Positions 8,393 through 32,367 are shown, counted from the stretch's first letter. The stretch: DNA of 64,000 nucleotides from an uncultured Phycisphaeraceae bacterium (GCA_964649825.1 CAZYQW010000086.1:21027-85026), one strand, 5' to 3'. A program made the numbers and translations. Notes: generated by a model from the letters alone, not told the origin.

Positions 8393-10324
8393 GTGAAACC
8401 AGCTGCCATCATCGCGATTCTCCTTCTCTTGTTCGGCGCGGCCGCCTACGTCTTCCTGATGGACGGCACGGAAGACCCCGGAGAGGATCCCGCGAGTTCA
8501 TCGAGCGCGATCGACGGGACCGGACCGACGGCGACGCGGACGGCGCAGAAGGCCCGCGCCGGGCGCGAGGAACGGCCGCCCGCCGACTTCCCCGACGTGG
8601 TGGCCCCGCCCGAACCGGCGGAAGCGTTCGTGGAGGAGAAGGGAACCCCCGAGACCGGCGTCACGGGCGTCGTGCTCTCCCCGACCGGCAGCGCGGTCCG
8701 GGACGCCGTCGTCACCTGCTACCGGCGCGAGAGCGAAGGGGACCTGCTTCGGTACTCGTCGACGCGCGTGAAGGAAGCGGTGACGACCAACGCCCGCGGC
8801 GGGTTCGAGATCGTCGGGCTCACCGGCGGGTCGGACTACGCGCTGCGCGTCGATCACGGATCGTTCGCCACGGCCGAGGTTGCGGGCATCGAGATCGAGG
8901 AGGGCCGGATGGTCCGCGTCCCCGACGTGGAGATGAAGGGTGGCGTCACGATCAGGGGAAACGTCACGCGACCGAGCGGCGCCGCCCTGGCGCAGGCGAT
9001 CGTGGCGGCGGCGAACTTGATGGACCCGGCGCGCGGCATCGTCCGCCAGGCCCTGACCGATCAGGACGGTGCCTATCGGCTCGAGAACCTGACGCCCGGG
9101 ATCTACGAGCTCAGCGCGCGCGCGGTGGGCACGCAACACCAGAAGACCGGTGCCGTTCATCTCCTGAACCCGCGCGAGGAGAACCGCCAGGACTTCGTCC
9201 TTCCCGACGGACTCGAGCTCTTCGGCCGAGTGTTGGAGCCGGGCGGCGAACCGGTGGCCGGCGTGCGCGTCACGGCCTCGCCCCTGCGGGGCGCCACCCA
9301 ATCGCCGGTCACGACGACGACGCGCTCCGACGGCTGGTTCCGCGCGGACGGGCTCGGCTCCGGCGAGTACCGGCTCGTCGTCGAGAAGCAGGGCTACATC
9401 TCGATCCAGAGGCCGCGCGAGGCGGCGGACGGCCGGGCCCGCCAGTTCACGCTCCATCGCACAGCGGGCGTGACCGGATTCGTGGTCGACCCAGGCGGCG
9501 AACCCATCACCCGGTTCTGGATCCGCGCGCTGCAGGTCGACACCGGCGGCAATCCGGTCGGACAGCGCGGAGAGATCGAGGCGGTGAAATCGAAGGACGG
9601 CTCGTTCACCGTCGAGGATCTCCCGCCGGGCCGGTACGCGATCCAGTCGTACGCCGACGGCTATGCGCCGACGATGTGCCGCTGGTTCCAGATGCAGAAC
9701 CAGTACATCCACGGAGTGAAGATCCGGATGGACCCGGAGTCGTCGATCACCGGGCTCGTCACCGACGCATCGGGTGCACCGTTTCCCGACGCGACGGTTC
9801 GCTTGCTCGACAACGCCTACCGCGACATGCCGAACGCACGGCTCCTGTTCGGCCGGTACTCGCGCCTGGGCAAGACGAAGACCGATGAGCTCGGACGCTA
9901 CACGTTCCAGTCGATCGGAGCCGGCACGTACCAGGTGCAGGCGAGCGCGCCGGATCGGCTCTCCGTCAGCCAGCGCGACGTCGTGGTCGAGACGGCGAGC
10001 CGCAAGGAGCTCGACCCGCTCGTTCTCACGGAGGGTGGCCACCTGACGGGAACCGTCTTCGGGGCCAGCAACGTCCCCGCGAACGGGGCGCGCGTGACGG
10101 TCTCGACTCCCGAGGACGGAGTGATCGCCGAGGTCCGTGCGAACGACCGCGGCGAGTTCTCCATTCGGAATCTGCGTCCGGGCGCGTACCGGCTCAGCGC
10201 GATCGGCGCCCAGGCGGCGGCCCAGAACATCTTCGCGGCCGCGATCCAGAGCACCCGCAGCGTGACCGACGTCAACGTCGTCGAGGGTCAGTCGATCCCG
10301 ATCACGATCTATCTGAACTCCTGA
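8393..10324 (+). CDS. Membrane-anchored protein with multiple carboxypeptidase-regulatory-like (CarboxypepD_reg/Cna-B type) beta-sandwich repeats.
   Basis: The proposed GTG start at 8393 gives VKPAAIIAILLLLFGAAAYVFL as a signal-anchor. Repeats of the form GxVxDxxGxPxxxAxVxL...GxYxxxxLxPGxYxL recur throughout. The start is uncertain. Confidence 0.55.
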   Translation: MKPAAIIAILLLLFGAAAYVFLMDGTEDPGEDPASSSSAIDGTGPTATRTAQKARAGREERPPADFPDVVAPPEPAEAFVEEKGTPETGVTGVVLSPTGSAVRDAVVTCYRRESEGDLLRYSSTRVKEAVTTNARGGFEIVGLTGGSDYALRVDHGSFATAEVAGIEIEEGRMVRVPDVEMKGGVTIRGNVTRPSGAALAQAIVAAANLMDPARGIVRQALTDQDGAYRLENLTPGIYELSARAVGTQHQKTGAVHLLNPREENRQDFVLPDGLELFGRVLEPGGEPVAGVRVTASPLRGATQSPVTTTTRSDGWFRADGLGSGEYRLVVEKQGYISIQRPREAADGRARQFTLHRTAGVTGFVVDPGGEPITRFWIRALQVDTGGNPVGQRGEIEAVKSKDGSFTVEDLPPGRYAIQSYADGYAPTMCRWFQMQNQYIHGVKIRMDPESSITGLVTDASGAPFPDATVRLLDNAYRDMPNARLLFGRYSRLGKTKTDELGRYTFQSIGAGTYQVQASAPDRLSVSQRDVVVETASRKELDPLVLTEGGHLTGTVFGASNVPANGARVTVSTPEDGVIAEVRANDRGEFSIRNLRPGAYRLSAIGAQAAAQNIFAAAIQSTRSVTDVNVVEGQSIPITIYLNS

Positions 10325-15946: not shown

Positions 15947-16059
15947 GCCAAACCCGCCACCACCGCCGCGCTGCGCGGAGCATCATAGGCGACGAGATCC
16001 GGAAGCCGAACGATCGCGTGCCGCGAACCGTCGCGCACGGGCTCCCGTATGATCGCGTC

Positions 16060-17282: not shown

Positions 17283-17328
17283 ACACGCGCCTCGGGCCCC
17301 GCCGCCGCCGGCCGCGCCCGTTTCGACG

Positions 17329-18084: not shown

Positions 18085-18095
18085 GCGAGAGGACC

Positions 18096-20077: not shown

Positions 20078-21750
20078 GGCGCTCCTCGCACCGCGTCCGG
20101 CGACGGCGCGCCGATCGTCCTCGTCGCCCGCGCCCGCGTTCTTGCGCGGACGTCGCGCGCGACGTCGCGACCACGACAGGCGGGGACGTCGCGGCGCAGA
20201 CGGCGCAGCACCCGCAGGCGCACGCGCGCCGGGACCGACGGCGCGACGTCGTTCACTTGCGAGAGCCCCCGCAGAATCTGTTCGCGAAGCGGCGGACGGC
20301 CGAACGTGATCCCGTCGAAGTCGACGAGCCACGCGCGAGCGCCGTCCGCGTCGATCCGCACCATGAGATTCTTCGGCGAGAGGTCGTTCGCGCGCACGTC
20401 GCTGGAGAAGACGGCGACCAGCAGCTCGGCCACCGCGTCGGCGAGTTCACCCGCGCGCTCCTCGAGGTCGCCGCCCGCGCCGACGCGGAACGATAGGACC
20501 GAGAGCGGCTCGGCTCCCTCGACTGCGTCCATCACGACGATCGATCGATCCGGCGTCTTCAGCCACGCGACGACGCGCGGAACCGGCAGCCCGCGCACGA
20601 GGAGCGCGTGTCCGGCCTCGTACGCGCGGCCGCCGCGACCCTGCGTCCATCGCCCGCGCGGCGAGCGCCGTCCATCGCCCTCGTAGACCTTCACCGCGAA
20701 CGCCGCACCGCCCGCCGCGGCGATCGCGACGGCCGAACGACGGCCGAGCGCCCGCGCCGCGGCACCGCCGGCGGCGATCGCGGCGCGGGCGCTCGCGATC
20801 GCCGCGAACAAGGTGGTCTCGTCCACCTCACGGCGACGAAAGCCGCGCACGCCCCCGCACCGAACCGCTGCGAAGCCGGAGCTCTCTCGAGTCGCGCGGC
20901 GTGATCGACTCGCGAGGCGACGCCGCTCCCGTCGCCGCAGCGCGTGCGCGACCGCGGCCCGCCAGCGCGCGACCTCCGCGACCGGCCGCCCCGCCGCGAG
21001 CACGTACGCGGCGACCGCGTCGTCGTCGTCCGCGCGATCGAGCGCGTGACGCAACGTGTGGAGGAGATCGGCGAGCGCGAGGACGCGCCGGCGCGTCGCG
21101 ACCCGCGACCCGCGGACCACGCGGTGCAGGTCGATCACGTGGAGAGGACCGCCGTCGCCCTCGTTCCCGCGTTCGACCAGGAGGTTGCCGCCGTGGAAGT
21201 CCCGGTGGTCGAACCCGCGGGCGTGCAGGGCCGCGAGCAGGTCGGCTGCGCGACGCACCCACCGGCCCTTCCTCTCGCCCGCGCCGTCGCCCGGACGGAA
21301 CCGAGCCTCGAGGAAGCCGCCCAGCGGCACCGCTCCCGGCACCGCCCGGAGCGCGAACAGCGACCACTCACGCCTCCCGCGGATCGTACGGCTCCCGCGC
21401 GCCAGCGGCTCGGGGACGAGGAACCCTTCGCGACGGAGCGCCGTCGCCGTCGCCCACTCGCGCTCGGCGCGATCGCGTCCCACCAGCGCCTTCACTGCGT
21501 CCGCGGTTCCGGCGACGCGGTAGTGCTTGACGATCCACGCGCCGTCCGCGCTCGGGAGCTCGAACACGCAGCGTCGCGGGTTCTCCTTCAGGACGCGCCC
21601 CCCGTGCGCCGCCGGATCGAGCAACGCGTCGACCGAGAGCCCGGCCGCCGCGAGCGCCCCGCGCACGACGTTGAGATGCTCGCCCCGCGGCCCGCGGTGG
21701 AGCTCGAGGTCGTCGTGGTCGTGGGCGGGCGGGTCGCGGCCGTCTTGCAT
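20074..21750 (-). CDS. Tandem two-domain lipopolysaccharide kinase (Kdo/WaaP/InaA family).
   Basis: There are two kinase cores. The N-terminal half reads HARGFDHRDFHGGNLLVE...LHVIDLHRV. The C-terminal half reads ANDLSPKNLMVRIDADGARAWLVDFDGI. Confidence 0.6.
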   Translation of the reverse strand: MQDGRDPPAHDHDDLELHRGPRGEHLNVVRGALAAAGLSVDALLDPAAHGGRVLKENPRRCVFELPSADGAWIVKHYRVAGTADAVKALVGRDRAEREWATATALRREGFLVPEPLARGSRTIRGRREWSLFALRAVPGAVPLGGFLEARFRPGDGAGERKGRWVRRAADLLAALHARGFDHRDFHGGNLLVERGNEGDGGPLHVIDLHRVVRGSRVATRRRVLALADLLHTLRHALDRADDDDAVAAYVLAAGRPVAEVARWRAAVAHALRRRERRRLASRSRRATRESSGFAAVRCGGVRGFRRREVDETTLFAAIASARAAIAAGGAAARALGRRSAVAIAAAGGAAFAVKVYEGDGRRSPRGRWTQGRGGRAYEAGHALLVRGLPVPRVVAWLKTPDRSIVVMDAVEGAEPLSVLSFRVGAGGDLEERAGELADAVAELLVAVFSSDVRANDLSPKNLMVRIDADGARAWLVDFDGITFGRPPLREQILRGLSQVNDVAPSVPARVRLRVLRRLRRDVPACRGRDVARDVRARTRARATRTIGAPSPDAVRGAP

Positions 21751-21931
21751 GGTCTCGATCGCGGACGGTTCTTGTCCGACTCGCCCGAAGTATGGACGTC
21801 GGCTGGGACGTTCACAACCGCGATCGCGCCGGCGGCGCCGAGCCGATCGACCCGGCGTCGACGCTCGCCGAACGGGTCACCCCTCGACTTCCGGATCCCG
21901 CCCTCCTCGTCGACGCTCTACGATCCCTCCC

Positions 21932-23050
21932 ATGTCCCTGCCGATCCGCAGCCTTCATCTCGACACCGAGCGTACGTGGCGCGGCGGCGAGCAGCAGGTG
22001 CTCTACCTCGTCGACGGCCTCCGGCAACGCGGTCACGTGGCCGAGGTGGTCGGCCCCCCGGAGTCGCCGTTCGTGAAGCGGGCGCGCGAGGCCGGGGCGG
22101 TCGCGCACGAGGTTCCGCTGCGGGGCGAGCTGAGCCCGCGCGCCATCCGCCGGGTCGCGGCGATCCTGAAGGCCGGCGCGTTCGATCTGATCCACGCCCA
22201 CACCTCCCACGCGCACGCGATCGCGGCGATCGCGGCACGGCTCGCGCGACCGGCCCGCTGCGTCGTCTCGCGTCGCGTGGACTTCCCGATCCGGAGGGGC
22301 CCGTTCAGCCGCATGAAGTACCGCTTCGGCGTCGACCGCTACGTGGCGATCTCGCGAGCCGTGCGCGACGTCTTGGTTGGAGGCGGAGTGAACGAGGAAC
22401 GGATCCGGGTCGTGCCGAGCGGGATCGACCTCGCGCGCCTCGACGCGGCCGACGCGGAGTCGATCACGCGCGAGTTCGGCATCCCGCCCGGCGCCCGAGT
22501 CGTCGGCTCGCTCTCGTGGTTCGCGGGGCACAAGGGTCTCGAGCACTTCGTCGATGCCGTTCCCGCCGTCGCGGCGCGACACCCCGACGCGTGGTTCTTC
22601 CTCGTCGGCGACGGCGAGGAGCGCGCCGCCATCGAGGACCGGGCGCGCCGGGTCGCGCCCCACGCCCGCATCCGTTTCCCCGGCTTTCGGAAGGACGCGC
22701 TTTCGTTCCTCGCGCGCTTCGACGTGGTCTGCACCCCATCCGTCCTCGAGGGTCTGAACACGACGAACCTCGACGCACTCGCGCTCGGCCGGCCGGTCGT
22801 CGCCACCGCGGTCGGCGGGATCCCGGAGGCGGTGATCGACGGCGAGACCGGGCTCCTCGTCCCCCCCTCCGCTCCGGCCGCGCTCGCCGCCGCGATCGAG
22901 CGGCTCCTCGACGAACCCGAGCTCGGCGCCCGTCTCGGCGCGGCGGGGCGGGCGCTCGTCGAGCGACGGTTCACGAACGACGCGATGGTCGAGGGGACGC
23001 TCGAGGTGTACCGCGAGCTGCTTCGAGCCGGACCGACCGGCGGCGGCTGA
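21932..23050 (+). CDS. Family 4 glycosyltransferase (WaaG/RfaG-like). It is transcribed divergently from the LPS-kinase operon.
   Basis: The ORF starts at ATG 21932 and reads MSLPIRSLHLDTERTWRGGEQQVLYLVDGL. The C-terminus reads EGLNTTNLDALALGRPVVATAVGGIPE. Confidence 0.8.
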   Translation: MSLPIRSLHLDTERTWRGGEQQVLYLVDGLRQRGHVAEVVGPPESPFVKRAREAGAVAHEVPLRGELSPRAIRRVAAILKAGAFDLIHAHTSHAHAIAAIAARLARPARCVVSRRVDFPIRRGPFSRMKYRFGVDRYVAISRAVRDVLVGGGVNEERIRVVPSGIDLARLDAADAESITREFGIPPGARVVGSLSWFAGHKGLEHFVDAVPAVAARHPDAWFFLVGDGEERAAIEDRARRVAPHARIRFPGFRKDALSFLARFDVVCTPSVLEGLNTTNLDALALGRPVVATAVGGIPEAVIDGETGLLVPPSAPAALAAAIERLLDEPELGARLGAAGRALVERRFTNDAMVEGTLEVYRELLRAGPTGGG

Positions 23051-23054
23051 CGGA

Positions 23055-23140
23055 TGGGTTCACGACGACGAACGACGCAGAGATCGGCGACGAGCAACCG
23101 CCAGGCGTGGGGCGGGCCCGAATCGATCGGGGTTACCCGG
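23055..23140. repeat. Copy A of a conserved ~80-nt non-coding element (GGGTTCACGACGACGAACGACGCAGAGATCGGCGACGAGCAACCGCCAGGCG...), upstream of the gene at 23345.
   Basis: It aligns at roughly 90% identity, by eye, with 46465-46550. Both copies sit in 5' intergenic regions of secreted-protein genes. Confidence 0.5.
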
Positions 23141-23344
23141 GCCGCCGAGGCGGCGTATCATGGCGACCGCACCCACCGGCGCGGGGCGCGCGAGGAGTGG
23201 TGGTGCGATTCGCTCGGAAACCCGCGGTATCGTTGAAGCGGCATCGACGCTCGGCGCACGGGGCGGCGACGCCGACCGATCGCAACCGCCCCCGAGCCTC
23301 CCGATAGGCGCGCGCCGGAAGGCGGTCGGCGCGGCTATCATGCT

Positions 23345-25267
23345 GTGATGCGTTTCCTGCTGCCGTTCCTCCTCCTCGCGATCGCCGTCCTGACCGCGTT
23401 GTTCCTGTTCCGCGCCGGTGACGCCGAACGCCCGCGCGACGACGCCGGGCGCGTCGACGGGGTCGACGCGACGCAACCGGACGTCGAAGCCCCGCCGAAC
23501 GGGCCGATTCGCGCGTCGGATCCGGAGCGGGTCTCCCTCTCGCCGGGGACGACTGCGCCCAGCGGCCGCGCGCCCGCGGGAGCCGAGGGCAGCGTCGGGA
23601 GCGGCCTCTCCGGTCGGGTCACGAGCATGGACGGACGACCGATCACGGGTGCGCGGGTCGAAGCGCTCGAGGAACAGAGGAGCCTGCTCACCCTCCGCAC
23701 CCCGCTCGGAATCGAGACGGCGACCGACGGCGCGGGACGGTTCGGGCCGCTCGATCTCGCTGGCCCGCTGCCGGTCGCCCTGCGGGTGAGCGCGCCGGGA
23801 TACGCGACGACGACCGTCGGACCGTACGCGCCGGAGCGCGCGGTCCCGATTCCCGACGTACGGCTCGATGACGGGTTCGTCCTCGCCGGAACCGTCCGCT
23901 CGGACGTCGACCTCGCGCCGGTCCCGGGCGCGCGCGTCATGGTCCATCTCGACCCGCCGCGGGCGGGGCTCGGTACCGGCGCTCTCTTCGCCGAGCAGTC
24001 GACCGAGACCGACGCCGCTGGCCGCTACCACGTCGACGGCCTCGGCTACCGCCAGTACCGCGTCGAGGCCGCCGCCGACGGCTTCGCTCCGACCTCGGTC
24101 TCGCGGACGTTCCTCGTGCAGCGGCACCAGAAGGAGATCGAGCTCGACCTCGCTCTGCAACCGGCCACCCGCGTGCTCCACGGCGTCGTGCGCACGAGGG
24201 GCGATGAGCCGCTCGGCGGCGCGCGGGTCCTGGCGCGGTCGATGGGCGGCGCGCGGGACCAGCCCGCCGCCGCTGCGACGTCGTCCGCCGACGGGAGCTT
24301 CACGCTCACCGGCCTCGCGGACGCGCCCTACGAGGTGAGCGCGACGGCGACGGGCTACGTGCTCGGTCGGCCCGTCGAGGTGCGGCCCGGGCCGGAGGCG
24401 ATGGAGCTCGTGCTCGACGAATGCGGCCGGATCGCGGGACGGGTCCTCGCGGCGGGCGGTCGGGCCGCGGAGCGCGCGATCGTGGACTTGGTCCACCTCG
24501 GCGACGGGGCCGAGAGAACGGTGAGGTCGATCGGCACCGGCGCCGGCGGGACGTTCGCGCTCGAGAACGTCCCGCCCGGCCGCTACCGGATCGACGCGAA
24601 GGCGGACGGCTCGGTCGCGGTCCAGGGCACGGGGTTCGACCTCGACCCGGGCGAATCGATCGAGGATGCGGTGGTGCGGCTCGGACGCGGCGGTCGCGTT
24701 CGGGGCCGCGTCGTGGACGATGGCGGGCGACCGATCGCCGACGCGATGATCGATCTCTTCCCATCGGACACCGACCGCACGACTCCGGTGACCGAGTCGG
24801 CGTTCCTGGAGGCGACCGCGCGGCGACGCTCGACGTCAGCGAGCGACGGCACGTTCGTGCTCGACGCGGTGCCGGAGGGCTCGTTCGTGGTGCGCGTGGC
24901 GGCGGACGCGCGGGCGACGACGTGGAGCGACGCAGTCGTCGTCGACGGGAGCGACACCGCGACGGTCGGCGACGTCGCGCGCGGCGCCGGCGCGACCCTC
25001 CGCGGCGTCGCGCTCGACGAGGACGGCCTGCCTCTTCCGCGCGCGCGGGTGGAAGCGCGCTCGACGGACGCCGGCCACGCGGAGACCGCATGGACCGCCG
25101 CGGACGGCACGTTCGCGATGGAGCGCCTGCCCGGCGGACGGTACGAGATCACGTTGCCGATCGAGGATCCGACCGACGTCTTCCGCTATCGCAGCCGAGC
25201 GGAGGCCGACGTCCCGGCCGGCGGCGACGTTGCCGTGACCGTACGCCGCGAGCGACGGTCGGGCTGA
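23345..25267 (+). CDS. Signal-anchored protein with multiple carboxypeptidase-regulatory-like beta-sandwich repeats. It is a paralog of the gene at 8393-10324.
   Basis: The N-terminus reads MMRFLLPFLLLAIAVLTALFLF. It has the same recurring GRVxxxxGxPxxxAxV...GxYxV repeat pattern. Confidence 0.6.
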   Translation: MMRFLLPFLLLAIAVLTALFLFRAGDAERPRDDAGRVDGVDATQPDVEAPPNGPIRASDPERVSLSPGTTAPSGRAPAGAEGSVGSGLSGRVTSMDGRPITGARVEALEEQRSLLTLRTPLGIETATDGAGRFGPLDLAGPLPVALRVSAPGYATTTVGPYAPERAVPIPDVRLDDGFVLAGTVRSDVDLAPVPGARVMVHLDPPRAGLGTGALFAEQSTETDAAGRYHVDGLGYRQYRVEAAADGFAPTSVSRTFLVQRHQKEIELDLALQPATRVLHGVVRTRGDEPLGGARVLARSMGGARDQPAAAATSSADGSFTLTGLADAPYEVSATATGYVLGRPVEVRPGPEAMELVLDECGRIAGRVLAAGGRAAERAIVDLVHLGDGAERTVRSIGTGAGGTFALENVPPGRYRIDAKADGSVAVQGTGFDLDPGESIEDAVVRLGRGGRVRGRVVDDGGRPIADAMIDLFPSDTDRTTPVTESAFLEATARRRSTSASDGTFVLDAVPEGSFVVRVAADARATTWSDAVVVDGSDTATVGDVARGAGATLRGVALDEDGLPLPRARVEARSTDAGHAETAWTAADGTFAMERLPGGRYEITLPIEDPTDVFRYRSRAEADVPAGGDVAVTVRRERRSG

Positions 25268-25288
25268 AGATCGAGGAGCGTCAAGTCC

Positions 25289-26104
25289 GTGAACCACGCC
25301 TTCCGCATCGGATCCCTGCTCGGAGTCACGATTCGGGTGCACGTCATCTTCGTGCTCCTGGTCGCGGCGATCGTCATCCAGACGGCGATCGCCACCAACC
25401 TGACCTTCGCGCTCGCCGTCGCGGTTCGGCTCTTCCTCCTGTTCTCGTTCGTCGCCCTGCACGAGCTCGGCCACTCGATCGTAGCCCAGGCGCATGGGAT
25501 ACGCGTCTTCGACATCGTGCTCTGGCCGCTCGGCGGGATGGCGCGTCTCGAGCGGCTGCCGGAGAATCCCGCCGTCGAGTTCAAGATCGCGATCGCCGGT
25601 CCGGCCGTGAACTTCTTCCTCGTCCTCCTCTTCCTGCCGCTCCACCTGGCGGTGGGCGGGGCGCTGTCGTTGGACGCGGCGGAGCTGATCGGGGGCTCGC
25701 TCCTCGGCTACGCGGTCGTCGTGAACCTGACGATGGGCGCGTTCAACCTCGTTCCCGCGTTCCCGCTCGACGGCGGCCGGGTCCTCCGCGCCGCGCTCGC
25801 GCGCCGCGTCAGCTACCTGCGCGCCACCCGCGTCGCGGTCTGGTTCGGCCGCGCGCTCGCGGTCGGCATGGCCGCGTTCGCGGTGGTGGAGACCGACTCG
25901 GCGAGCATCCTGTTCATCGCCGTGTTCGTCTGGTGGATCGGCGGCCAGGAGCTCCGCGCGGCCGAGGTGCGCGCCGCGTTCGGGCGCGGCGACGCCGGCG
26001 CGATCGACCCGACGTTCGCGCCCGGCGCGCGGCGATTCCTCGTCCTCGACAGGCCCGACGATCGAGCGCGCCCCCAGCCGGAACGGCCCGGGAGCCGCGG
26101 GTGA
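25289..26104 (+). CDS. M50-family (site-2-protease-like, SpoIVFB-type) intramembrane metalloprotease.
   Basis: The zinc-binding motif LHELGHSIVA (HExxH) sits inside a TM helix. The second zinc-ligand segment reads NLVPAFPLDGGRV. There are about 6 TM helices. Confidence 0.8.
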   Translation: MNHAFRIGSLLGVTIRVHVIFVLLVAAIVIQTAIATNLTFALAVAVRLFLLFSFVALHELGHSIVAQAHGIRVFDIVLWPLGGMARLERLPENPAVEFKIAIAGPAVNFFLVLLFLPLHLAVGGALSLDAAELIGGSLLGYAVVVNLTMGAFNLVPAFPLDGGRVLRAALARRVSYLRATRVAVWFGRALAVGMAAFAVVETDSASILFIAVFVWWIGGQELRAAEVRAAFGRGDAGAIDPTFAPGARRFLVLDRPDDRARPQPERPGSRG

Positions 26105-27015
26105 GTCGTCGTCGAAGGCTCGTCTGGCTGGTCGGCGGCGCGGCCGGGTTGGCCGCCGTCTTCTTCGCCGCGCTTGCGTTCGTGATCGCGACGAACCACC
26201 TCCGCGGCGACGTCGCCGCGCCCGAGTCGCTCGTCACCGAGGGAGCGCGCGCCGGCGGCTTCGAGCGCGTGGAGTTCAAGACCGACGACGGCTTGACGTT
26301 GCGCGCCGACCTCATCGGCGACGCGCAGAAGCGCCCCGTCGTCCTGTTCGGCCACGGCTACCGCCACCGGCGACGTCAAGGCGACCCGCTCGCGCGAGCG
26401 CTCCTCCTGCGAGGCTACGCGGTGCTCCTGTTCGACTTCCGCGGAAGCGGAGCCAGCGACGGCCGTTACACCGGCGCCGGCGCGATCGAAGCGCCCGACG
26501 TCCGCGCGGCGATCCGCTTCCTTCACGGGGCGCGCGGCGTTCCGCTCGAACGGATCGCGTTTGTCGGCTACTCGATGGGCGCGGCGGCCGGCCTGCTCGC
26601 CGCCGACGCGCTCGCCGCGCTTCCCGCCGTCGTGCTGATCGCGCCTTACACGCGGCTCACGGAGACCTACGAAGCACGCACGCTTCGGTTCGGCCACCTG
26701 CCGCTCGACCCGTGGTTCGCGCCGTCCGTATCGATCCTCTCCTGGCTCCTCGACGTCGACGTCCGTTCGGTGCGCCCGATCGATGCCGCGAGCCGACTCG
26801 CCCGAACCAGCGTCCTTCTGATCGGAGCTCCCGACGACTGGCGAGCACCGGTGGACGGCCTGCGCGAGATCGCCGGGTGCGTCGGACCGACCGCGACGCT
26901 CGCCGTCGTCGCGACCGGCGGGCACTTCGACCTCGCCCGACTCGGCGACGACGTACAAGCGCTGACGATCCGCTTCCTCGATCACCACTTCACTCCACGT
27001 CCGATGAGCCGATGA
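26101..27015 (+). CDS. Alpha/beta-fold hydrolase (abhydrolase, dienelactone hydrolase/S9-like) with an N-terminal TM anchor.
   Basis: The proposed GTG start at 26101 overlaps the M50 stop. The nucleophile elbow reads GYSMGAAAG, preceded by VVLFGHGY. Confidence 0.7.
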   Translation: MSRRRRLVWLVGGAAGLAAVFFAALAFVIATNHLRGDVAAPESLVTEGARAGGFERVEFKTDDGLTLRADLIGDAQKRPVVLFGHGYRHRRRQGDPLARALLLRGYAVLLFDFRGSGASDGRYTGAGAIEAPDVRAAIRFLHGARGVPLERIAFVGYSMGAAAGLLAADALAALPAVVLIAPYTRLTETYEARTLRFGHLPLDPWFAPSVSILSWLLDVDVRSVRPIDAASRLARTSVLLIGAPDDWRAPVDGLREIAGCVGPTATLAVVATGGHFDLARLGDDVQALTIRFLDHHFTPRPMSR

Positions 27016-28835
27016 TCCTCGCCGCTCTCCTCACCAGCCAGGTTTTCGTCGCCCCGCTCGCCGCCGCGGAGCATCCGTGCGCGGAGTGCCACGCGGCGAT
27101 CGTGCAGACCTACGCGAACCACGGAATGGCGCGGGCGCTGTACGAGCTCGACGCGGGGACGGTCGACGCCGTCGCGGGTTCGGCGCGGCTCGATCCGAAG
27201 GGCGGCTACACGTACCGCGTCGAGCGGAGCGAATCGGGCGCGCGGCTGGTCGAGGAGAAGGCCGGGCCGGCCGGGTTCGACGACCACCGTTCGTCGCAGC
27301 GGATCCGCGCCGTCATCGGCCGCGGCCACTTCGACCGCTCGCTCGTCACCGAACACGAGGGGCGGCTCTTCTTCGCTCCGGTGGAATGGTCGACGACCGC
27401 CGGCCTCGTGCTCGCGCCCCATCAAGAGCTGACGCCGCACACGCGCCTCGGGCAGCCGGTCACCGGCGAGTGCCTCGCCTGCCACTCCGACTTCGAGCCG
27501 CCGTCGACCTACCCGTTGAATCTCGCGCCGGCCGCCCCGCTCGCCGGGATCGACTGCGCGGGCTGCCACGGCGACCCGTCGCGCCATCTCGAGGAGGCGG
27601 GCGAGCGCGGCACGATCACCCCCCTCGGCGCCCTTCCGCCGGAACGACAGCTCGACGTCTGCGCCAGGTGCCACCTGCAGGGCGACGCGCGCATCGATCT
27701 GCGCGGTCCCGGAGCCGAACGGTTCGCGCCCGGCGACGACTTGTTCGCGACGCGCGCTGCGTTCGTCCCACGGCGGCCCGGCGACGAGTTCGGGTTCGTG
27801 AGCGCCGTGGAACGGCTCGCGCTCTCGGCCTGCTTCACCGCGTCCGACGGTCGGCTCGCGTGCACCGTCTGCCACGACCCCCACGAGTCGGCGATCGGCA
27901 CCGCGGCGAAGATCGATCGAAGCTGCCTGGGCTGCCACGCCCCCGCCGACTGCGGACGCGAGCTCCGAGACGAGCGGGCCGATCGGAACGGCTGCGTCGA
28001 GTGCCACATGCGGAAGGCGGGTCCGTTCGACCTCCGACACGTCACGATCACCGATCACTTCATTCGGAAGCGTTTCGCCGCGCCGTCGTGGCCCGATGAG
28101 ATCCGCGTGCACGCTGCGGAGGACGGCGACCTCGTCCGGTTCCGCTGGCCCGGCGCGTCGAGCGATCCCCTCGAGGACGACGGCGCGCTGGCCATGGCGC
28201 TGATGCATCTGGGTCACGCCGGGCGAGCCATCGAGACGTTCGAGCGAGTCATCGACGCCGGCGTTCCCGATTCGCTGTCACGCTTGCCGCGCTTCCACTT
28301 CATGCTCGGCCGCGCCCTCGAGGCCGCGGGACGGCCCGCCGACGCGGAACGCGCGTACGAGACGACGCTGGGCCTCGCGCCTGGCGACCCCGAAGCATCC
28401 GTCAACCTCGGCCTCCTCCTCGCGTTGAAGGGGGACGAGCGGGCGCGCGCGGTGCTCGACGCAGTCACGACGTCGCATCCGCGGGCCGCCGCGCCGTGGC
28501 GCAACCTCGCGGTGCTCGCCTCGCGCCGGCGCGACGCGGATGAGTTCGAGCGGTCGATCACCGAGGCGCTGCGGCGAGACTCCGACCTTCCGTCGGTCTG
28601 GCTCCAGCTCGGCGGATTCCAGATCGACCGCCGCGACTACGCGGCGGCCGCGCACGCGCTGGAGGAAGCGCGGCGGCGCGATCCGGACCTCGCCGGGCTC
28701 TACTCACGCCTCGGCGTCGCCCGGTTCGAGACCGGCGACCGCCGCGGCGCGCGCCGCGCCTTCGAGGAGGCGCTGCGGCGCGATCCGGACGATCGGCTCG
28801 CGCGCGCGGGGCTCGCGCGGTCGGGCGGAGGATAG
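27012..28835 (+). CDS. Heptaheme c-type cytochrome fused to C-terminal TPR repeats.
   Basis: The ATG at 27012 overlaps the hydrolase stop. There are seven CxxCH motifs (CAECH, CLACH, CAGCH, CARCH, CTVCH, CLGCH, CVECH) and a signal peptide MILAALLTSQVFVAPLAAA. The C-terminal third is TPR-like. Confidence 0.75.
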   Translation: MILAALLTSQVFVAPLAAAEHPCAECHAAIVQTYANHGMARALYELDAGTVDAVAGSARLDPKGGYTYRVERSESGARLVEEKAGPAGFDDHRSSQRIRAVIGRGHFDRSLVTEHEGRLFFAPVEWSTTAGLVLAPHQELTPHTRLGQPVTGECLACHSDFEPPSTYPLNLAPAAPLAGIDCAGCHGDPSRHLEEAGERGTITPLGALPPERQLDVCARCHLQGDARIDLRGPGAERFAPGDDLFATRAAFVPRRPGDEFGFVSAVERLALSACFTASDGRLACTVCHDPHESAIGTAAKIDRSCLGCHAPADCGRELRDERADRNGCVECHMRKAGPFDLRHVTITDHFIRKRFAAPSWPDEIRVHAAEDGDLVRFRWPGASSDPLEDDGALAMALMHLGHAGRAIETFERVIDAGVPDSLSRLPRFHFMLGRALEAAGRPADAERAYETTLGLAPGDPEASVNLGLLLALKGDERARAVLDAVTTSHPRAAAPWRNLAVLASRRRDADEFERSITEALRRDSDLPSVWLQLGGFQIDRRDYAAAAHALEEARRRDPDLAGLYSRLGVARFETGDRRGARRAFEEALRRDPDDRLARAGLARSGGG

Positions 28836-28885: not shown

Positions 28886-31834
28886 TCAGCGGCGCGAGGC
28901 CTCGATCGACTCGAGCCGAGCGCGGAGCGCCGCGACCGACGCGTGGCCGGAGCCGAGCTCCGCGGCCCAGCGCTCGATGACCCCACGAAGCAGGTCGATC
29001 GCGTCGGCGTGTCGTTCGAGCTCGACGAGGGTCTCGGTGGCGCGGGCGATCGCGAACGCGGCCCGCCCGTCGTCCGCGCCGAAGGCGGATTCCAGTCGCC
29101 GCGCCGCTTCGCTCCACCGACGGACGGCTTCGTCGTGGTCGCCCTCTCGAACGAGGAGCTCGGCGATGGTCAGTTGGAGGATCGTGACCTGCGGATGATC
29201 GTCACTCAGCCGCGACCGTATCGCCTCGAACCCGTCCCGCAGATACTCCGCCGCCTCGGCCACCCTCCCGCGATACAGGATCACCCGCCCCAACGCGAAC
29301 CGCGCGACGGCGGTCGTCAGGTGGCCGTCGCCCAAGGTCTCGCGCGAGAGATCGACCACGTCGCGGTAGATGCGCTCTCCTTCTGCGAGCCGGCCGCCGA
29401 ACGAGATCGCGTCGCCGAGCTCCGACATGTGTCCGACGAGGGCCGGGTGACGGTCGCCGAGCTGCGCCGCGAGACGCGTGATCCCGTCCCGCAGGGTCGA
29501 CTCGGCCTGGTCGAAGCGCCCCGCGGCGAGATCGATCGCGCCGCGCATGAGGAGCCCCTCGACGACCTCCGCGTTGTCGGCGCCAAACGCCGCGGTCGCG
29601 GCCGCGAGAAACGCGTCGCAGCACGCCGCGGCTTCATCGAAGCGGCCCATGTCGCGGAGCAGCGCAGCCAACGTCTGGCGCGCGTCGAGCGCCAGCGGAT
29701 GTGTCTCGCCGTGCGCGGCGACGAGGGCGTCGGCCGCCAAGCGCAGCTCGATCAGGGCCGCGTCGTAGCGGCCCGCCTCTCGCAACGCCCGCGCGAGGGC
29801 GGCGCGCGCGGCGGCGACGTCGGGATGATGGGCGTCGAACCGGGCCGACACGACCGCGAGGTTCGACTCGAGCATCAAAACCGCCTCGTGCGGCCGCCCC
29901 TCCTTCAGACGGAGATTCGCGACGGACGACGCGACGGCCCGCGTGTGATAGTGCTCCGCACCGAGCCGGTTCACGAGCGTCGCATAGCAAGCACCGAGGA
30001 GAGCGTCCGCCTCCTCGATCCGTCCCTGCGCGACGAACGCGTCGCCCAGGAGCTTGTCGATCCACGAAGCCAATTCGGTCCCCGCCGCCGCCGGCCCGAT
30101 CGCCAGCAGCCGTCGCTCCGCCGCCCCCGCGTCCGAGCGCAGGAGGTCGAGGTGCGCCAGGTCGAACGCCACGTGCACGAACTCGTCCGGATCCGGCGCG
30201 CCGGCCGCGGCGTAGCCGGCCTCCGCACGGAGGAGCAGCGGTTCCGCTGCGTCGAGCCGCCCATCGCTCAACAAGGCCGCCCCGAGCCGCCGGCGGCACT
30301 CGTGCGTACGCGGATCGTCGTCGCCGTACGCGCCGATCGCAAGCTCGAGGGCCCGTCGCAGCTCGGGCTCCGCACGGTCGAACGCCCCGAGCGCGACGTA
30401 CGCGGCGCCGGCCGTTCCGTGCACGCGGATCGCCGCGGCCGGGGCGCCGGCGAACGCGGTCGGGATCATCGGCACCGCCCGGTTCAAGACGTCCTCGACG
30501 CGCGCGTCCCGCCCGAGGTCGTCGCCGTCGACCGAGAGGATCATGTCGTGGAGAAAGCGGCTCACGTCATCCGCCTCGCGCCGGGCCCGCTCGGCGAGGG
30601 CGGCCTGGCGACCCGCCTCGCGCGCGTGAGAAACGGCGAGGAAGAGCCCCACCAGCAGCGCGAGCAGCGTCGTGGCGGCTCCGACGACGAGCGCCCGATG
30701 CAGGGCGACGAACCGCGCCGCTCGTCGTTGCCACTCGAGCGGCCGGGCGGCGATCGGGTCGCCGGCCACGATGGCGCGCAGGTCGCGAGCGAGCTCGACG
30801 GCCGACGGATAGCGATCGTTCGGGTCCTTGCGCAGCGCCTTCTCGACCACCGTCTCGAGGTCGCCGGAGAACGCTCGGTCGACGTCGCCGAGGCGCGGCG
30901 CGTCCTCGTGCACGATCCGATGCAGCGCGTCGGAGAACCGTTCGGGATCGAGGGACAGCGGCGGCCGACCCGCGAGCAGCTCGAACAGCAGCACGCCGAG
31001 CGCGAACACGTCGCTTCGTGCGTCGACGTCGCCGGCGCGACCCGACGCCTGCTCGGGGCTCAGGTACGCGAGCGTGCCGAGGATCTGACCGGCCGACGTG
31101 AGCGTCGCGGTTCGCTCGGGTCGGAGGATCCTCGCCACGCCGAAATCGACGATACGTGGGTCTCCGCGCCGGTCGACGAGCACGTTCGATGGCTTCAGGT
31201 CGCGATGGACGACGCGCTGGACGTGGGCGTGGGCGACGCCCTCGGCCACCCGCCGCATCAAATCGAGGCGCGCCCGCACCTCGAGTCGGTTCTCCGCCAC
31301 GTGACGATCGAGCGGGAGACCGTCGACCTTCTCGAGCACGAGGAACGGGTGGAGGATCTCCCCGATCGGGGCGAACCCCGCGTGATGGATGCGCGCCACG
31401 AACGGATGATCGAGCCGCGCGAGCGCGTCCGCCTCGCGGCGAAATCGCTCGAGCACCGACGGGTCCATCGCCGGCGCGCGGAGGAGCTTCAGCGCCACCC
31501 GCCGCCGGGGCGTCTCCGACTCGACTTCGAAGACGGTGCTCGCGGCGCCATGCCCGAGGATCGAGACGACGCGGTAGCCCGCGATCGCCTCGGGCAATGC
31601 GTCGAGGGCAAAGTCCCCCGAGCCCTCGAGCACGCCGGTCCAGGCGCCCGCCGGCACCAACGTCGCGTCGAGCGGGCTCGCGACCCCATCTTCGGCCAGC
31701 AGCTTCCGCACCTCGTCGGCGAGCGCGGAATCGTCCTCCCGCAAGGCGGCGAACAGCCGCTCGCGCTCCGACGCCGGGAGCGCTGCCGCTCGGTCGAACA
31801 AGGCCCGGAGGCGGCGGGGTCGATCCAGCGTCAC
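28886..31834 (-). CDS. Ser/Thr protein kinase (Hanks type) with one TM helix and an extracytoplasmic TPR region.
   Basis: The proposed GTG start at 31834 overlaps the ECF sigma stop by 4 nt. The kinase motifs read VALKLL, VVHRDLKPSNVLV, DFGVAR and GTLAYLSPE. A TM segment (LVVGAATTLLALLVGLFLAV) is followed by about 550 aa of TPR-like repeats. Confidence 0.8.
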   Translation of the reverse strand: MTLDRPRRLRALFDRAAALPASERERLFAALREDDSALADEVRKLLAEDGVASPLDATLVPAGAWTGVLEGSGDFALDALPEAIAGYRVVSILGHGAASTVFEVESETPRRRVALKLLRAPAMDPSVLERFRREADALARLDHPFVARIHHAGFAPIGEILHPFLVLEKVDGLPLDRHVAENRLEVRARLDLMRRVAEGVAHAHVQRVVHRDLKPSNVLVDRRGDPRIVDFGVARILRPERTATLTSAGQILGTLAYLSPEQASGRAGDVDARSDVFALGVLLFELLAGRPPLSLDPERFSDALHRIVHEDAPRLGDVDRAFSGDLETVVEKALRKDPNDRYPSAVELARDLRAIVAGDPIAARPLEWQRRAARFVALHRALVVGAATTLLALLVGLFLAVSHAREAGRQAALAERARREADDVSRFLHDMILSVDGDDLGRDARVEDVLNRAVPMIPTAFAGAPAAAIRVHGTAGAAYVALGAFDRAEPELRRALELAIGAYGDDDPRTHECRRRLGAALLSDGRLDAAEPLLLRAEAGYAAAGAPDPDEFVHVAFDLAHLDLLRSDAGAAERRLLAIGPAAAGTELASWIDKLLGDAFVAQGRIEEADALLGACYATLVNRLGAEHYHTRAVASSVANLRLKEGRPHEAVLMLESNLAVVSARFDAHHPDVAAARAALARALREAGRYDAALIELRLAADALVAAHGETHPLALDARQTLAALLRDMGRFDEAAACCDAFLAAATAAFGADNAEVVEGLLMRGAIDLAAGRFDQAESTLRDGITRLAAQLGDRHPALVGHMSELGDAISFGGRLAEGERIYRDVVDLSRETLGDGHLTTAVARFALGRVILYRGRVAEAAEYLRDGFEAIRSRLSDDHPQVTILQLTIAELLVREGDHDEAVRRWSEAARRLESAFGADDGRAAFAIARATETLVELERHADAIDLLRGVIERWAAELGSGHASVAALRARLESIEASRR

Positions 31835-32367
31835 CGCACGCCCTCGGCGCCGAGCTCGCGTCCGAGCCACGCCCGCGCAAAGCGCCAGTCGAGATCGACG
31901 GTGCGCGGCGAGACGCGAAGGACGGCCGCCGTCTCGTCGACCGAGAGCCCACCGAACCATTTCAGCTCCACGACTCGGGCCGCGCGCTCGTGCTCGCGAC
32001 CCAGCCGGTCCAGCGCCTCGTCGAGGGCGAGGAGGTCGGCAGTCGACGTCTCGCGCGCGCCGTCCGCCGCCACGAACTCGAGGCGAACGCGATCACCGCC
32101 TCGCTTGGCCGCACCGCGCCGCCTTGCATGGTCCACGAGAACCTCGCGCAGCGTGCGCGCGGCCAGAGCCAGGAAGTCGCCCCGCGCGACCCAAGCCGCT
32201 TCATTGCGCCCGAGCAGCTTCAGGAACGCCTCGTGCACGAGCGCGGTCGACTGTAGGGTATGTCCGGGCCGCTCGCGCGCGAGCGCCCGACTCGCGAGAC
32301 CACGCAAGCACTCGTAGACGATCGGCGTCCACCACCGGGCGTCGGAGCGAGTCGAATCGTGAGACAT
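31831..32367 (-). CDS. ECF sigma factor of the Ser/Thr-kinase-associated type (Sigma70_ECF/PF07638-like).
   Basis: The 178-aa ORF reads LVHEAFLKLL (region 2) and has a C-terminal region-4 helix-turn-helix (LSVDETAAVLRVSPRTVDLDWRFARAWL). It is translationally coupled to the kinase gene. Confidence 0.7.
   Translation of the reverse strand: MSHDSTRSDARWWTPIVYECLRGLASRALARERPGHTLQSTALVHEAFLKLLGRNEAAWVARGDFLALAARTLREVLVDHARRRGAAKRGGDRVRLEFVAADGARETSTADLLALDEALDRLGREHERAARVVELKWFGGLSVDETAAVLRVSPRTVDLDWRFARAWLGRELGAEGVR

What the first reader, a model, noticed from the sequence alone, without database searches (positions are those of the whole stretch)
23345..28835. Translationally coupled four-gene operon: CarboxypepD_reg-repeat anchor protein, M50 site-2-protease-like, alpha/beta hydrolase, heptaheme cytochrome c with TPR
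Four plus-strand genes lie head to tail, and the last two junctions are 4-nt stop/start overlaps (26101/26104 and 27012/27015), which implies stoichiometric co-expression. The combination is unusual: an intramembrane zinc protease of the SpoIVFB-like M50 type, with HExxH inside a TM helix and no PDZ domain, sits next to a signal-anchored beta-sandwich repeat protein. That is the classic geometry of a regulated-intramembrane-proteolysis substrate-protease pair. The operon ends in a serine hydrolase and a seven-heme c-type cytochrome whose C-terminal third is TPR repeats. I do not recognise this arrangement as a described system. It could be a redox-gated proteolytic signalling or envelope-remodelling module. 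A paralog of the first gene sits alone at 8393-10324.
Basis: partly seen in the sequence, partly recalled or inferred. Interest (0 to 1): 0.7.

Follow-up and report, generated by a model that had tools for sequence, protein, structure and literature searches.

The report
Planctomycete envelope operon with M50 protease
The four genes are real and recur as a cluster in one uncultured Planctomycetota lineage, but only the anchored repeat protein and the membrane protease are always together, and nothing supports a signalling or redox-gated role.

Summary
Four head-to-tail plus-strand genes encode a membrane-anchored 6x CarboxypepD_reg protein, a PDZ-less and CBS-less M50 site-2 protease with intact zinc motifs, a membrane-anchored alpha/beta hydrolase, and a heptahaem cytochrome fused to TPR repeats.

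The cluster recurs in eight further diverged lineages of one uncultured Planctomycetota clade (M50 40-60% identical). It is absent around about 80 other M50 genes and 78 other hydrolase genes.

The cluster is modular:
- Only repeat protein -> M50 is invariant.
- The hydrolase is missing in two lineages and the cytochrome in four.
- A secreted prenyltransferase-repeat gene leads the cluster in seven of the eight relatives (not L013) and has been lost here.

- The repeat protein has a 2-7 residue cytoplasmic tail, so there is no effector to release and signalling by intramembrane proteolysis is unlikely.
- Four-base overlaps are common in this genome.
- The cytochrome belongs to a large, mostly unlinked OcwA-like family.

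My best reading, which is inferred, is a lineage-specific envelope operon in which the M50 clips the signal anchor of its co-encoded neighbour. Interest is modest.

The parts
23345..25267 (+). P1: signal-anchored protein with six CarboxypepD_reg (transthyretin-like beta-sandwich) domains. ATG at 23348 is the start used by public gene calls.
   Evidence: (PF13620, 208 bits, 6 stretches).
23354..23410 (+). P1 N-terminal hydrophobic helix (aa 4-22, FLLPFLLLAIAVLTALFLF), preceded by only M-M-R. Predicted type II (N-in) anchor with no AXA-like cleavage site.
   Evidence: Kyte-Doolittle 2.81. One search shows the same build in 7 orthologues and the paralogue, with the helix sequence not conserved.
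23411..23608 (+). P1 Pro/Ala/Gly/Asp/Glu-rich linker between the anchor and the first beta-sandwich domain.
   Evidence: alignment. The region is poorly conserved and of low complexity in all orthologues.
25273..25278 (+). GAGGAG Shine-Dalgarno-like motif, 10 nt upstream of the M50 GTG start, inside the 21-nt P1-M50 spacer.
   Evidence: read from the sequence.
25289..26104 (+). P2: M50 / site-2-protease family intramembrane zinc metalloprotease of the MjS2P/SpoIVFB type. It has no PDZ and no CBS domain.
   Evidence: profile against PDB gives 3B4R (MJ0392) E=1e-59 over the whole core and SpoIVFB 8VJL E=5e-18.
25460..25474 (+). HELGH zinc-binding and catalytic motif (H58, E59, H62) inside a hydrophobic segment.
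   Evidence: (invariant in 15 sequences).
25745..25777 (+). N153-L-V-P-A-F-P-L-D161-G-G motif carrying the third zinc ligand, Asp161.
   Evidence: N153, P156, P159, D161, G162 and G163 invariant.
26101..27015 (+). P3: membrane-anchored alpha/beta-fold serine hydrolase. Its GTG start overlaps the M50 stop (GTGA).
   Evidence: the nearest solved relatives are esterases and polyesterases (7QJM, E=1e-23).
26119..26193 (+). P3 N-terminal membrane helix after the M-S-R-R-R-R stretch (N-in), followed by the invariant T-N-x-x-R-G juxtamembrane motif.
26566..26580 (+). Nucleophile elbow G-Y-S158-M-G of P3.
   Evidence: G156, S158, M159 and G160 invariant in 5 orthologues; D246 and H275 also invariant.
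27012..28166 (+). P4 short signal peptide plus a heptahaem c-type cytochrome domain with an OcwA/MccA-like fold. A beta-sheet domain (aa 43-134) lies between haem 1 and haem 2. The ATG overlaps the P3 stop (ATGA).
28167..28835 (+). P4 C-terminal TPR superhelix (aa ~386-603) and the stop codon.
   Evidence: TPR_2, TPR_16, TPR_14, TPR_19 above cut-off. (pLDDT ~97-98)..
23051..23344 (.). Intergenic gap of about 0.3 kb. Seven of the eight related lineages carry a 456-483 aa secreted prenyltransferase/squalene-oxidase-repeat gene at this position. That gene has been lost in this genome.
   Evidence: gene present in relatives. (no tblastn hit anywhere in the window). (family assignment).
8393..10324 (+). 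Distant paralogue of P1 (24% identity) with the same anchor-linker-6x CarboxypepD_reg build. It is not next to an M50. Its 3' end overlaps a convergent S41 peptidase gene.

Best explanation
This is a lineage-specific, modular cell-envelope operon of an uncultured, high-GC Planctomycetota clade.

Composition:
- The invariant core is a type-II membrane-anchored protein carrying a string of periplasmic beta-sandwich domains (P1), immediately followed by an MjS2P/SpoIVFB-type M50 intramembrane zinc protease (P2).
- Optional modules are appended downstream. They are a membrane-anchored periplasm-facing serine esterase-like hydrolase (P3) and a periplasmic OcwA-like heptahaem cytochrome with a TPR docking domain (P4).
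- In relatives a secreted prenyltransferase-repeat protein is prepended. That gene has been lost here.

Shown: gene order, overlaps, domain identities, intact catalytic and haem motifs, and the conservation pattern.

Inferred:
- All four products act at or outside the cytoplasmic membrane.
- The M50 performs non-signalling intramembrane proteolysis. It clips the N-terminal signal anchor of its co-encoded neighbour P1, and possibly of P3, and so releases or turns over the ectodomain.
- This resembles the way RseP removes signal peptides and small membrane proteins. It is not the release of a cytoplasmic regulator.
- The hydrolase and the cytochrome are accessory periplasmic enzymes that are co-expressed with the protease but not required for it.
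For: Operon:
- Junctions are tight or overlapping in the window and in orthologous loci. P1/M50 spacing runs from -4 to +58 nt. M50/hydrolase is -4 in 5 of 7 loci. Hydrolase/cytochrome is -4 or +1.
- No internal promoter-like or terminator-like signal exceeds chance.

Conservation:
- P1->M50 adjacency occurs in 9 of 9 lineages, with M50 proteins only 40-60% identical to each other.
- This includes L013, where the rest of the cluster and the upstream flank differ.
- The downstream flank is different in nearly every lineage.

Specificity:
- HMM scans of 97 M50-bearing loci find P1-like or P3-like neighbours only in this clade.
- 78 more distant hydrolase loci have no M50.

Protease competence: HExxH and NxxPxxPxDGG are invariant, and the core is homologous to 3B4R at E=1e-59.

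Substrate plausibility:
- P1 and P3 have a short basic N-terminus followed by a 19-24 residue helix, which means N-in, the orientation S2Ps cleave.
- There is no PDZ size filter.
- S2Ps are known to do non-signalling clean-up of signal peptides and small membrane proteins (PMC10470546, PMC8144685).

Envelope context: Amidase_3, two GT1 glycosyltransferases and a Kdo/WaaP-family kinase lie immediately upstream and are syntenic in relatives.
Against: - There is no experimental or co-evolutionary evidence for any enzyme-substrate relation.
- The P1 membrane helix is not conserved in sequence.
- The M50 belongs to a near-universal orthologous group that has unrelated neighbours in about 80 other loci. 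Its primary role may therefore have nothing to do with P1.
- Conservation is confined to one clade. Upstream synteny there extends more than 8 kb (ispD to GT), so part of the adjacency could be inherited gene order.
- Well-studied S2Ps usually need prior removal of a bulky ectodomain, and P1 carries about 550 periplasmic residues.
Confidence: 0.4

Rival explanations
1. Co-regulated neighbours only. The M50 is the housekeeping MjS2P-like protease of these bacteria. It shares a transcription unit with envelope proteins in this clade, but there is no enzyme-substrate or regulatory relation among the four products.
For: - M50 relatives at 34-49% identity sit in unrelated contexts in Planctomycetota, Chloroflexota, Acidobacteriota and archaea.
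- The cluster is plastic. One gene was lost in the window, the hydrolase was lost in L178, the cytochrome was lost in three loci, and an aminotransferase was inserted in L176.
- Synteny extends far upstream.
Against: - P1->M50 adjacency survives in L013, where both flanks differ.
- It persists across M50 divergence down to 40% identity, while downstream neighbours change.
- Junctions are often overlapping.
Confidence: 0.3
2. SpoIVFA-like arrangement. The anchored neighbours (P1, perhaps P3) are regulators or scaffolds that hold the M50 inactive until a periplasmic cue or a hydrolase acts on them. The real substrate is encoded elsewhere.
For: - The gene order, with a type-II anchored protein directly upstream of a PDZ-less M50, copies spoIVFA-spoIVFB. 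There SpoIVFA and BofA inhibit the protease (PMC9042235, PMC6242693; operon order from my own knowledge).
- P3 orthologues have an invariant juxtamembrane TNxxRG motif, and 4 of 5 have a mid-helix Gln or Glu. This hints at a specific intramembrane contact.
Against: - P1 has no Peptidase_M23/LytM domain or other similarity to SpoIVFA.
- Its helix is not sequence-conserved, which is unexpected for an inhibitor that must dock in the active-site cleft.
- The window's own P3 lacks the mid-helix polar residue.
Confidence: 0.12
3. P1 and the M50 are a regulated-intramembrane-proteolysis signalling pair, gated by the redox state sensed through the cytochrome, with the hydrolase as a helper.
For: - The topology of P1 is right for an S2P substrate.
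- P3 is a membrane-anchored serine hydrolase that could in principle act as a site-1 enzyme, with weak Peptidase_S15/S9/S33 matches.
- When present, the cytochrome is translationally coupled to the preceding gene.
Against: - P1 has only 2-7 cytoplasmic residues in every orthologue, so nothing can be released to signal.
- The cytochrome is absent from 4 of 9 lineages and the hydrolase from 2.
- The nearest solved relatives of P3 are esterases, not peptidases.
- The cytochrome family is large, and the one more distant member whose neighbourhood was read (L177) has no M50 nearby.
- No transcription factor or anti-sigma domain lies in the cluster. The adjacent ECF/STK pair is convergent and not conserved there.
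Confidence: 0.05

Closest known systems
MjS2P (MJ0392, PDB 3B4R) and SpoIVFB (PDB 8VJL): M50 site-2 proteases without a PDZ domain
   Same: The whole six-helix core aligns (E=1e-59 to 3B4R, 5e-18 to SpoIVFB). HExxH and the LDG-type Asp motif are intact.
   Different: The C-terminal CBS domain found in SpoIVFB and in most close homologues is replaced by a tail of about 50 residues. The substrate is unknown. There is no sporulation context.
The spoIVFA-spoIVFB operon of Bacillus subtilis
   Same: A gene for a single-pass, N-in membrane protein with a large extracytoplasmic domain sits directly upstream of, and is co-transcribed with, a PDZ-less M50 gene.
   Different: SpoIVFA is an inhibitor/scaffold with a LytM-like domain and a sizeable cytoplasmic part. 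P1 has six CarboxypepD_reg domains and almost no cytoplasmic part. No BofA, SpoIVB or pro-sigma-K equivalents were seen.
RseA/RseP and other anti-sigma RIP cascades; RseP clean-up of signal peptides and small membrane proteins
   Same: The candidate substrates have type-II orientation. The proposed anchor clipping resembles the non-signalling quality-control activity of RseP (PMC10470546, PMC8144685).
   Different: There are no PDZ domains, no anti-sigma or other cytoplasmic effector domain on P1, and no identified site-1 protease. RseP is not encoded next to its substrates.
OcwA, the nonahaem cell-surface terminal reductase of Thermincola potens (PDB 6I5B), and the MccA/NrfA/c554 multihaem superfamily
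   Different: P4 has seven haems, not nine. The C-terminal three-helix bundle is replaced by about 220 residues of TPR. Identity is 16-17%. The protein is from a diderm planctomycete and is probably periplasmic. Catalytic or electron-transfer activity is untested.
M50 genes encoded beside their peptide substrates (yydFGHIJ YydH; daptide clusters)
   Same: They are precedents for an M50 protease encoded next to the protein it processes. NCBIfam gives a very weak daptide_HExxH match (E=0.003).
   Different: Those substrates are short ribosomal peptides in biosynthetic clusters with radical-SAM or other tailoring enzymes. None of these is present here.

Membership tests
Peptidase M50 / site-2 protease (S2P) | HExxH zinc motif within a membrane helix | tested here: met
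   H58-E59-L-G-H62 is invariant in 15 sequences. It lies in a hydrophobic segment at aa 38-66.
Peptidase M50 / site-2 protease (S2P) | Second motif NxxPxxxxDG supplying the third zinc ligand (Asp) | tested here: met
   N153, P156, P159, D161, G162 and G163 are invariant.
Peptidase M50 / site-2 protease (S2P) | Profile match above the curated threshold, and homology of the membrane core to a solved S2P | tested here: met
   PF02163 scores 76.2 bits against a cut-off of 27.2. 3B4R matches at E=1e-59 over profile positions 1-232.
Peptidase M50 / site-2 protease (S2P) | Intramembrane proteolytic activity on a type-II substrate | not testable with these tools
   This needs a cleavage assay.
RseP-type (group I) S2P | Tandem periplasmic PDZ domains | tested here: not met
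   No PDZ match. The TIGR00054 RseP model scores 17.8 bits against a cut-off of 147.
SpoIVFB/MjS2P-type (CBS-bearing) S2P | C-terminal CBS domain | tested here: not met
   There is no PF00571 match in the window protein or in its closest 28 homologues. It is present in most homologues below 45% identity.
Regulated intramembrane proteolysis signalling pair | Substrate is a single-pass N-in/C-out membrane protein | tested here: met
   P1 has M-M-R followed by a 19-residue hydrophobic helix, and the same build is seen in 7 orthologues. The topology is inferred from sequence only.
Regulated intramembrane proteolysis signalling pair | Substrate carries a cytoplasmic effector domain (anti-sigma or transcription factor) that is released | tested here: not met
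   The cytoplasmic part is 2 residues in the window and 1-7 residues in the orthologues.
Regulated intramembrane proteolysis signalling pair | A site-1 protease that first trims the ectodomain | tested here: inconclusive
   P3 is a periplasm-facing serine hydrolase with weak S15/S33/S9 matches. Its nearest solved relatives are esterases, and it is absent in L178 and L013.
   All four genes are present in L008, L175 and L176 (the last with an inserted aminotransferase). Three of the four are present in L002, L006, L010 (no cytochrome) and L178 (no hydrolase). Two are present in L013. None is present around about 80 other M50 loci.
Alpha/beta-fold serine hydrolase | GxSxG nucleophile elbow plus conserved acid and His | tested here: met
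   G-Y-S158-M-G, D246 and H275 are invariant in 5 orthologues. Hydrolase_4 scores 46.8 bits against 27.
Multihaem cytochrome c, OcwA/MccA/NrfA superfamily | Multiple CXXCH motifs with conserved distal ligands | tested here: met
   Seven CXXCH motifs are invariant in 37 homologues. M39, H192, H291 and H349 are invariant, H429 is 92% conserved and M395 is 84% conserved. Covalent haem attachment cannot be tested here.
Multihaem cytochrome c, OcwA/MccA/NrfA superfamily | Fold similarity to OcwA, including the beta-sheet insertion | tested here: met
Multihaem cytochrome c, OcwA/MccA/NrfA superfamily | OcwA proper: nine haems and a C-terminal three-helix bundle | tested here: not met
   P4 has seven haems, and its C-terminus is a TPR superhelix.
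CarboxypepD_reg repeat protein | PF13620 domains above threshold | tested here: met
   208 bits in 6 stretches for P1, and 242 bits in 6 stretches for the paralogue.
Known anti-phage defence systems | Match to a PADLOC model | tested here: not met
   No hits for any of the four proteins.

The most novel reading that the evidence does not exclude
The cluster encodes a self-contained 'anchor-and-release' module. The M50 is a dedicated protease whose natural substrate is the co-encoded beta-sandwich protein. The anchored hydrolase acts as a sheddase or partner, and the TPR-bearing OcwA-like cytochrome docks on the complex so that release of the envelope protein responds to periplasmic redox state. 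This would be the first natural substrate pair for the widespread PDZ-less MjS2P-type proteases, and the first haem-linked control of an S2P.
Probability: 0.07. Interest if true: 0.65.

Novelty: new variant of a known kind. Interest (0 to 1): 0.33.

Why it matters
Natural substrates of the PDZ-less, MjS2P-like M50 proteases are unknown outside a few model systems, although these enzymes occur in most bacteria and archaea. A clade in which such a protease is always encoded directly after one particular type-II anchored protein offers a concrete candidate pair that is cheap to test, by co-expression with an E59Q control. The analysis also shows that the heptahaem-TPR protein belongs to a large, uncharacterised OcwA-like cytochrome family. 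That family has hundreds of 50%-identity clusters in Planctomycetota, Acidobacteriota and others, and its function is an open question in its own right. Beyond that, the locus is an ordinary lineage-specific envelope operon.

Tried and rejected
It returned only relatives at <=47% identity, and none had P1-, P3- or P4-like neighbours by tblastn or HMM. This gives specificity but no new members.

2. The metagenome scan with the hydrolase profile found two orthologous contigs, one already known and one too short. The other 78 loci, at <=36% identity, had no M50.

3. I asked whether M50 followed by a lipid or ester hydrolase is a general pattern, prompted by a patatin gene after the M50 in L012. 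Pfam on the genes downstream of ten other M50 loci showed FIST, peroxiredoxin, cytochrome b or nothing, so I rejected the idea.

4. I considered that the lost upstream gene plus P1 form a split alpha-2-macroglobulin-like protein. TED_complement matches are sub-threshold (E 0.01-0.03), and no CxEQ thioester motif appears in the sequences. Homologues are prenyltransferase/squalene-oxidase-repeat proteins. Rejected.

5. Foldseek with the full-length P4 model was swamped by TPR hits. I re-modelled the haem domain alone.

6. Promoter and terminator scans, Rfam and tRNA scans found nothing informative inside the cluster.

7. PADLOC gave no hits.

8. Literature searches for multihaem+TPR, S2P in Planctomycetes, and M50+signal anchor found no description of this cluster.

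Full report
**What is in the window**

The region has about 73% G+C. It holds four co-directional plus-strand ORFs.

*P1 (23345/23348-25267)*
- It contains six CarboxypepD_reg domains (PF13620, 208 bits against a cut-off of 32).
- It has a single N-terminal hydrophobic helix at residues 4-22, preceded only by Met-Met-Arg.
- A Pro/Ala/Gly/acidic linker of about 65 residues follows the helix.

*P2 (25289-26104)*
- It is a Peptidase_M50 protein (76 bits against 27) with no PDZ or CBS domain.
- H58-E59-x-x-H62 and N153..P156..D161-G-G are invariant across 15 homologues.
- A profile of these sequences matches the whole membrane core of Methanocaldococcus MJ0392 (PDB 3B4R) at E=1e-59. It matches SpoIVFB (8VJL) at 5e-18.

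*P3 (26101-27015)*
- It starts with Met-Ser-Arg-Arg-Arg-Arg and a membrane helix of about 24 residues.
- It is an alpha/beta hydrolase (Hydrolase_4 at 46.8 bits, Peptidase_S15 at 42.9 bits).
- G-Y-S158-M-G, D246 and H275 are invariant.
- Its nearest solved relatives are esterases and polyesterases (7QJM at 1e-23, then MHETase-like and cinnamoyl esterases).

*P4 (27012-28835)*
- It has a short hydrophobic leader and seven CXXCH motifs, followed by TPR repeats from about residue 386.

*Junctions*
- The stop/start overlaps are GTGA at 26101-26104 and ATGA at 27012-27015.
- P1 and P2 are 21 nt apart, with GAGGAG 10 nt before the GTG.
- The paralogue at 8393-10324 has the same anchor-linker-six-repeat build at 24% identity.

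**Is the arrangement conserved?**

The window's proteins are identical to proteins on one NCBI contig of 95 kb and one Logan contig. Close relatives carry the label Planctomycetota.

I read the neighbourhoods of M50 and cytochrome homologues and found eight further lineages:

| Locus | Gene order | What follows |
|---|---|---|
| L002 | GT - X - P1 - M50 - hydrolase | a convergent gene |
| L006 | GT - X - P1 - M50 - hydrolase | a convergent gene |
| L010 | X - P1 - M50 - hydrolase | a convergent gene |
| L008 | GT - X - P1 - M50 - hydrolase - cytochrome | |
| L175 | GT - X - P1 - M50 - hydrolase - cytochrome | |
| L176 | X - P1 - M50 - class-V aminotransferase - hydrolase - cytochrome | |
| L178 | GT - X - P1 - M50 - cytochrome (no hydrolase; M50 and cytochrome overlap by 4 nt) | |
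| L013 | shorter anchored CarboxypepD_reg protein - M50 only, in a different upstream context | |

- X is a secreted protein of 456-483 residues. Its distant homologues carry squalene-hopene-cyclase/prenyltransferase repeats. It has about 19 orthologue clusters and then drops sharply to 30% identity.
- X is missing from the window. Only about 0.3 kb separates the glycosyltransferase from P1, and tblastn finds no trace of X anywhere.
- The M50 proteins of these lineages are only 40-60% identical to one another. The P1 proteins are 29-39% identical.
- The downstream neighbour differs almost every time.
- Upstream, the ispD - amidase_3 - GT - Kdo/WaaP-kinase - GT block is syntenic with L002 and L175.

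**Is it specific?**

- A genome-collection scan with the M50 profile returned 80 loci from many phyla at <=47% identity.
- Neither tblastn nor HMMs built from the P1 and P3 alignments find P1-like or P3-like genes near the M50 outside the clade. There are two marginal opposite-strand hits.
- A metagenome scan with the hydrolase profile gave two orthologous contigs. The other 78 relatives, at <=36% identity, had no M50 nearby.
- A cytochrome homologue at 42% identity (L177) stands alone.
- M50 relatives at 43-49% identity in other Planctomycetota (L012, L014) have unrelated neighbours. Ten further loci show no recurring downstream gene.

The cluster is therefore real but confined to one clade, and it is modular. 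Only P1->M50 is invariant, in 9 of 9 lineages. The hydrolase is present in 7 of 9 and the cytochrome in 5 of 9.

**The cytochrome**

- All seven CXXCH motifs are invariant in 37 homologues. So are M39, H192, H291, H349 and a lone C274.
- The AlphaFold model is confident: pLDDT 90.8 for the full-length protein and 87.6 for the haem domain alone.
- The strands at residues 43-134, between haem 1 and haem 2, correspond to the extra beta-sheet domain that OcwA shares with MccA (PMC6703420).
- An exhaustive search finds 426 representatives at E<=1e-30 and 2062 at E<=1e-10. Most are 580-700 residues long, which fits a haem domain plus a C-terminal tail. The word-indexed search shows the TPR fusion directly, in proteins from Planctomycetota and Acidobacteriota with no functional name.

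The haem-TPR fusion is therefore a common but unstudied architecture. It is not a peculiarity of this operon.

1. The 4-nt overlaps fit translational coupling and are conserved in orthologous loci. The same overlap also joins the 268-aa/GT, GT/kinase and ECF/STK pairs nearby. It says little about stoichiometry.

2. A signalling RIP pair needs a cytoplasmic effector on the substrate. P1 and all seven orthologues have 1-7 residues before the helix. This defining feature was tested and is not met.

3. Canonical S2Ps are not usually encoded beside their substrates (from my own knowledge). The closest gene-order precedent is spoIVFA-spoIVFB, which pairs the protease with an inhibitor (PMC9042235, PMC6242693).

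4. Redox gating has no support. The cytochrome is dispensable in four lineages and, where present, follows whichever gene is last.

5. The genes do co-occur and the zinc ligands are intact. The finding therefore stands as a conserved cluster, with a weaker functional reading.

**Most likely mechanism**

Shown: an operon-like, clade-specific cluster of four proteins with intact catalytic and haem motifs.

Inferred from sequence:
- P1 and P3 are N-in single-pass proteins with periplasmic domains.
- P4 is exported.
- P2 sits in the cytoplasmic membrane.

I consider it most likely (about 0.4, including the well-supported operon part) that the M50 carries out non-signalling intramembrane proteolysis of the signal anchor of P1, and possibly of P3. 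This would release or turn over the ectodomain. It is analogous to RseP's removal of signal peptides and small membrane proteins (PMC10470546, PMC8144685).

The non-conserved helix sequence suits a substrate better than a docking inhibitor.

The main rival (about 0.3) is that the genes are merely co-regulated. The M50 belongs to a near-universal orthologous group with unrelated neighbours elsewhere, and synteny in this clade extends well upstream.

**Novelty and verdict**

- Each protein is a new member of a known family.
- The cluster itself is not described in the literature I could search and matches no defence-system model.
- It is a new variant of a known theme, an S2P-family protease co-encoded with membrane-anchored partners.
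- A specialist would not be much surprised.
- Its value is a testable candidate substrate for a PDZ-less S2P, and a pointer to a large uncharacterised OcwA-like cytochrome-TPR family.

Noticed in passing
window 23051-23347, compared with L002 6545-7981, L006 3794-5227, L175 3712-5145, L178 943-2355: Seven of the eight related lineages (all but L013) carry a secreted prenyltransferase/squalene-oxidase-repeat gene of 456-483 aa between the glycosyltransferase and P1. The window has only about 0.3 kb there and no remnant, so the first gene of the ancestral cluster has been deleted in this genome.
   Followed up: yes
window 28889-31834 (-) and 31834-32367 (-): A Ser/Thr kinase with a long TPR region lies next to a PF07638-type ECF sigma factor, with a 4-nt overlap, convergent with the operon. 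This is the planctomycete-style kinase/ECF pairing. It is not conserved next to the cluster in relatives. A second Pkinase gene, read in the identical contig L001 at 12712 (-), would start near window 35778 (-).
   Followed up: partly
window 8393-10324 (+) and 10312-11868 (-): The P1 paralogue ends inside the 3' end of a convergent S41 peptidase gene (Tricorn_C1-PDZ-Peptidase_S41), with about 13 nt of overlap. S41 proteases trigger SpoIVFB in Bacillus, but whether this pairing is conserved was not checked.
   Followed up: no
L178 4423-7010 and L176 3720-8371: There are variants of the cluster. L178 lacks the hydrolase, and its M50 stop overlaps the cytochrome start. L176 has a class-V aminotransferase inserted between the M50 and the hydrolase.
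   Followed up: yes
window 27012-28166 (P4 residues 1-385): Only four strictly invariant distal-ligand candidates (M39, H192, H291, H349) serve seven haems, with H429 and M395 mostly conserved. There is also an invariant lone Cys274. One or more haems may have an open coordination site, as in OcwA. The signal peptide is unusually short and has no basic residue in any orthologue.
   Followed up: partly
window 26119-26210 and alignment A2: The hydrolase orthologues share an invariant T-N-x-x-R-G motif just after the membrane helix. Four of five have Gln or Glu in mid-helix, but the window protein does not. This may indicate a specific intramembrane contact.
   Followed up: no
L175 compared with the window: Divergence is discordant. 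The L175 cytochrome is the closest to the window's (59%), while its M50 (42%) and P1 (29%) are the most distant. This points to different rates of change or to exchange of the cytochrome module.
   Followed up: no
window 19022-19112 (-): ARAGORN reports an odd 'tRNA-???' with a four-base anticodon inside the glycosyltransferase gene. Rfam does not support it, so it is probably a false positive. Genuine tRNA-Glu (8151-8228) and tRNA-Met (14897-14973) are present.
   Followed up: partly
window 15898-23050: An envelope and isoprenoid block, ispD - Amidase_3 - 268-aa unknown - GT1 - Kdo/WaaP-family kinase - GT1, is syntenic with L002 and L175 and lies directly upstream of the cluster.
   Followed up: partly
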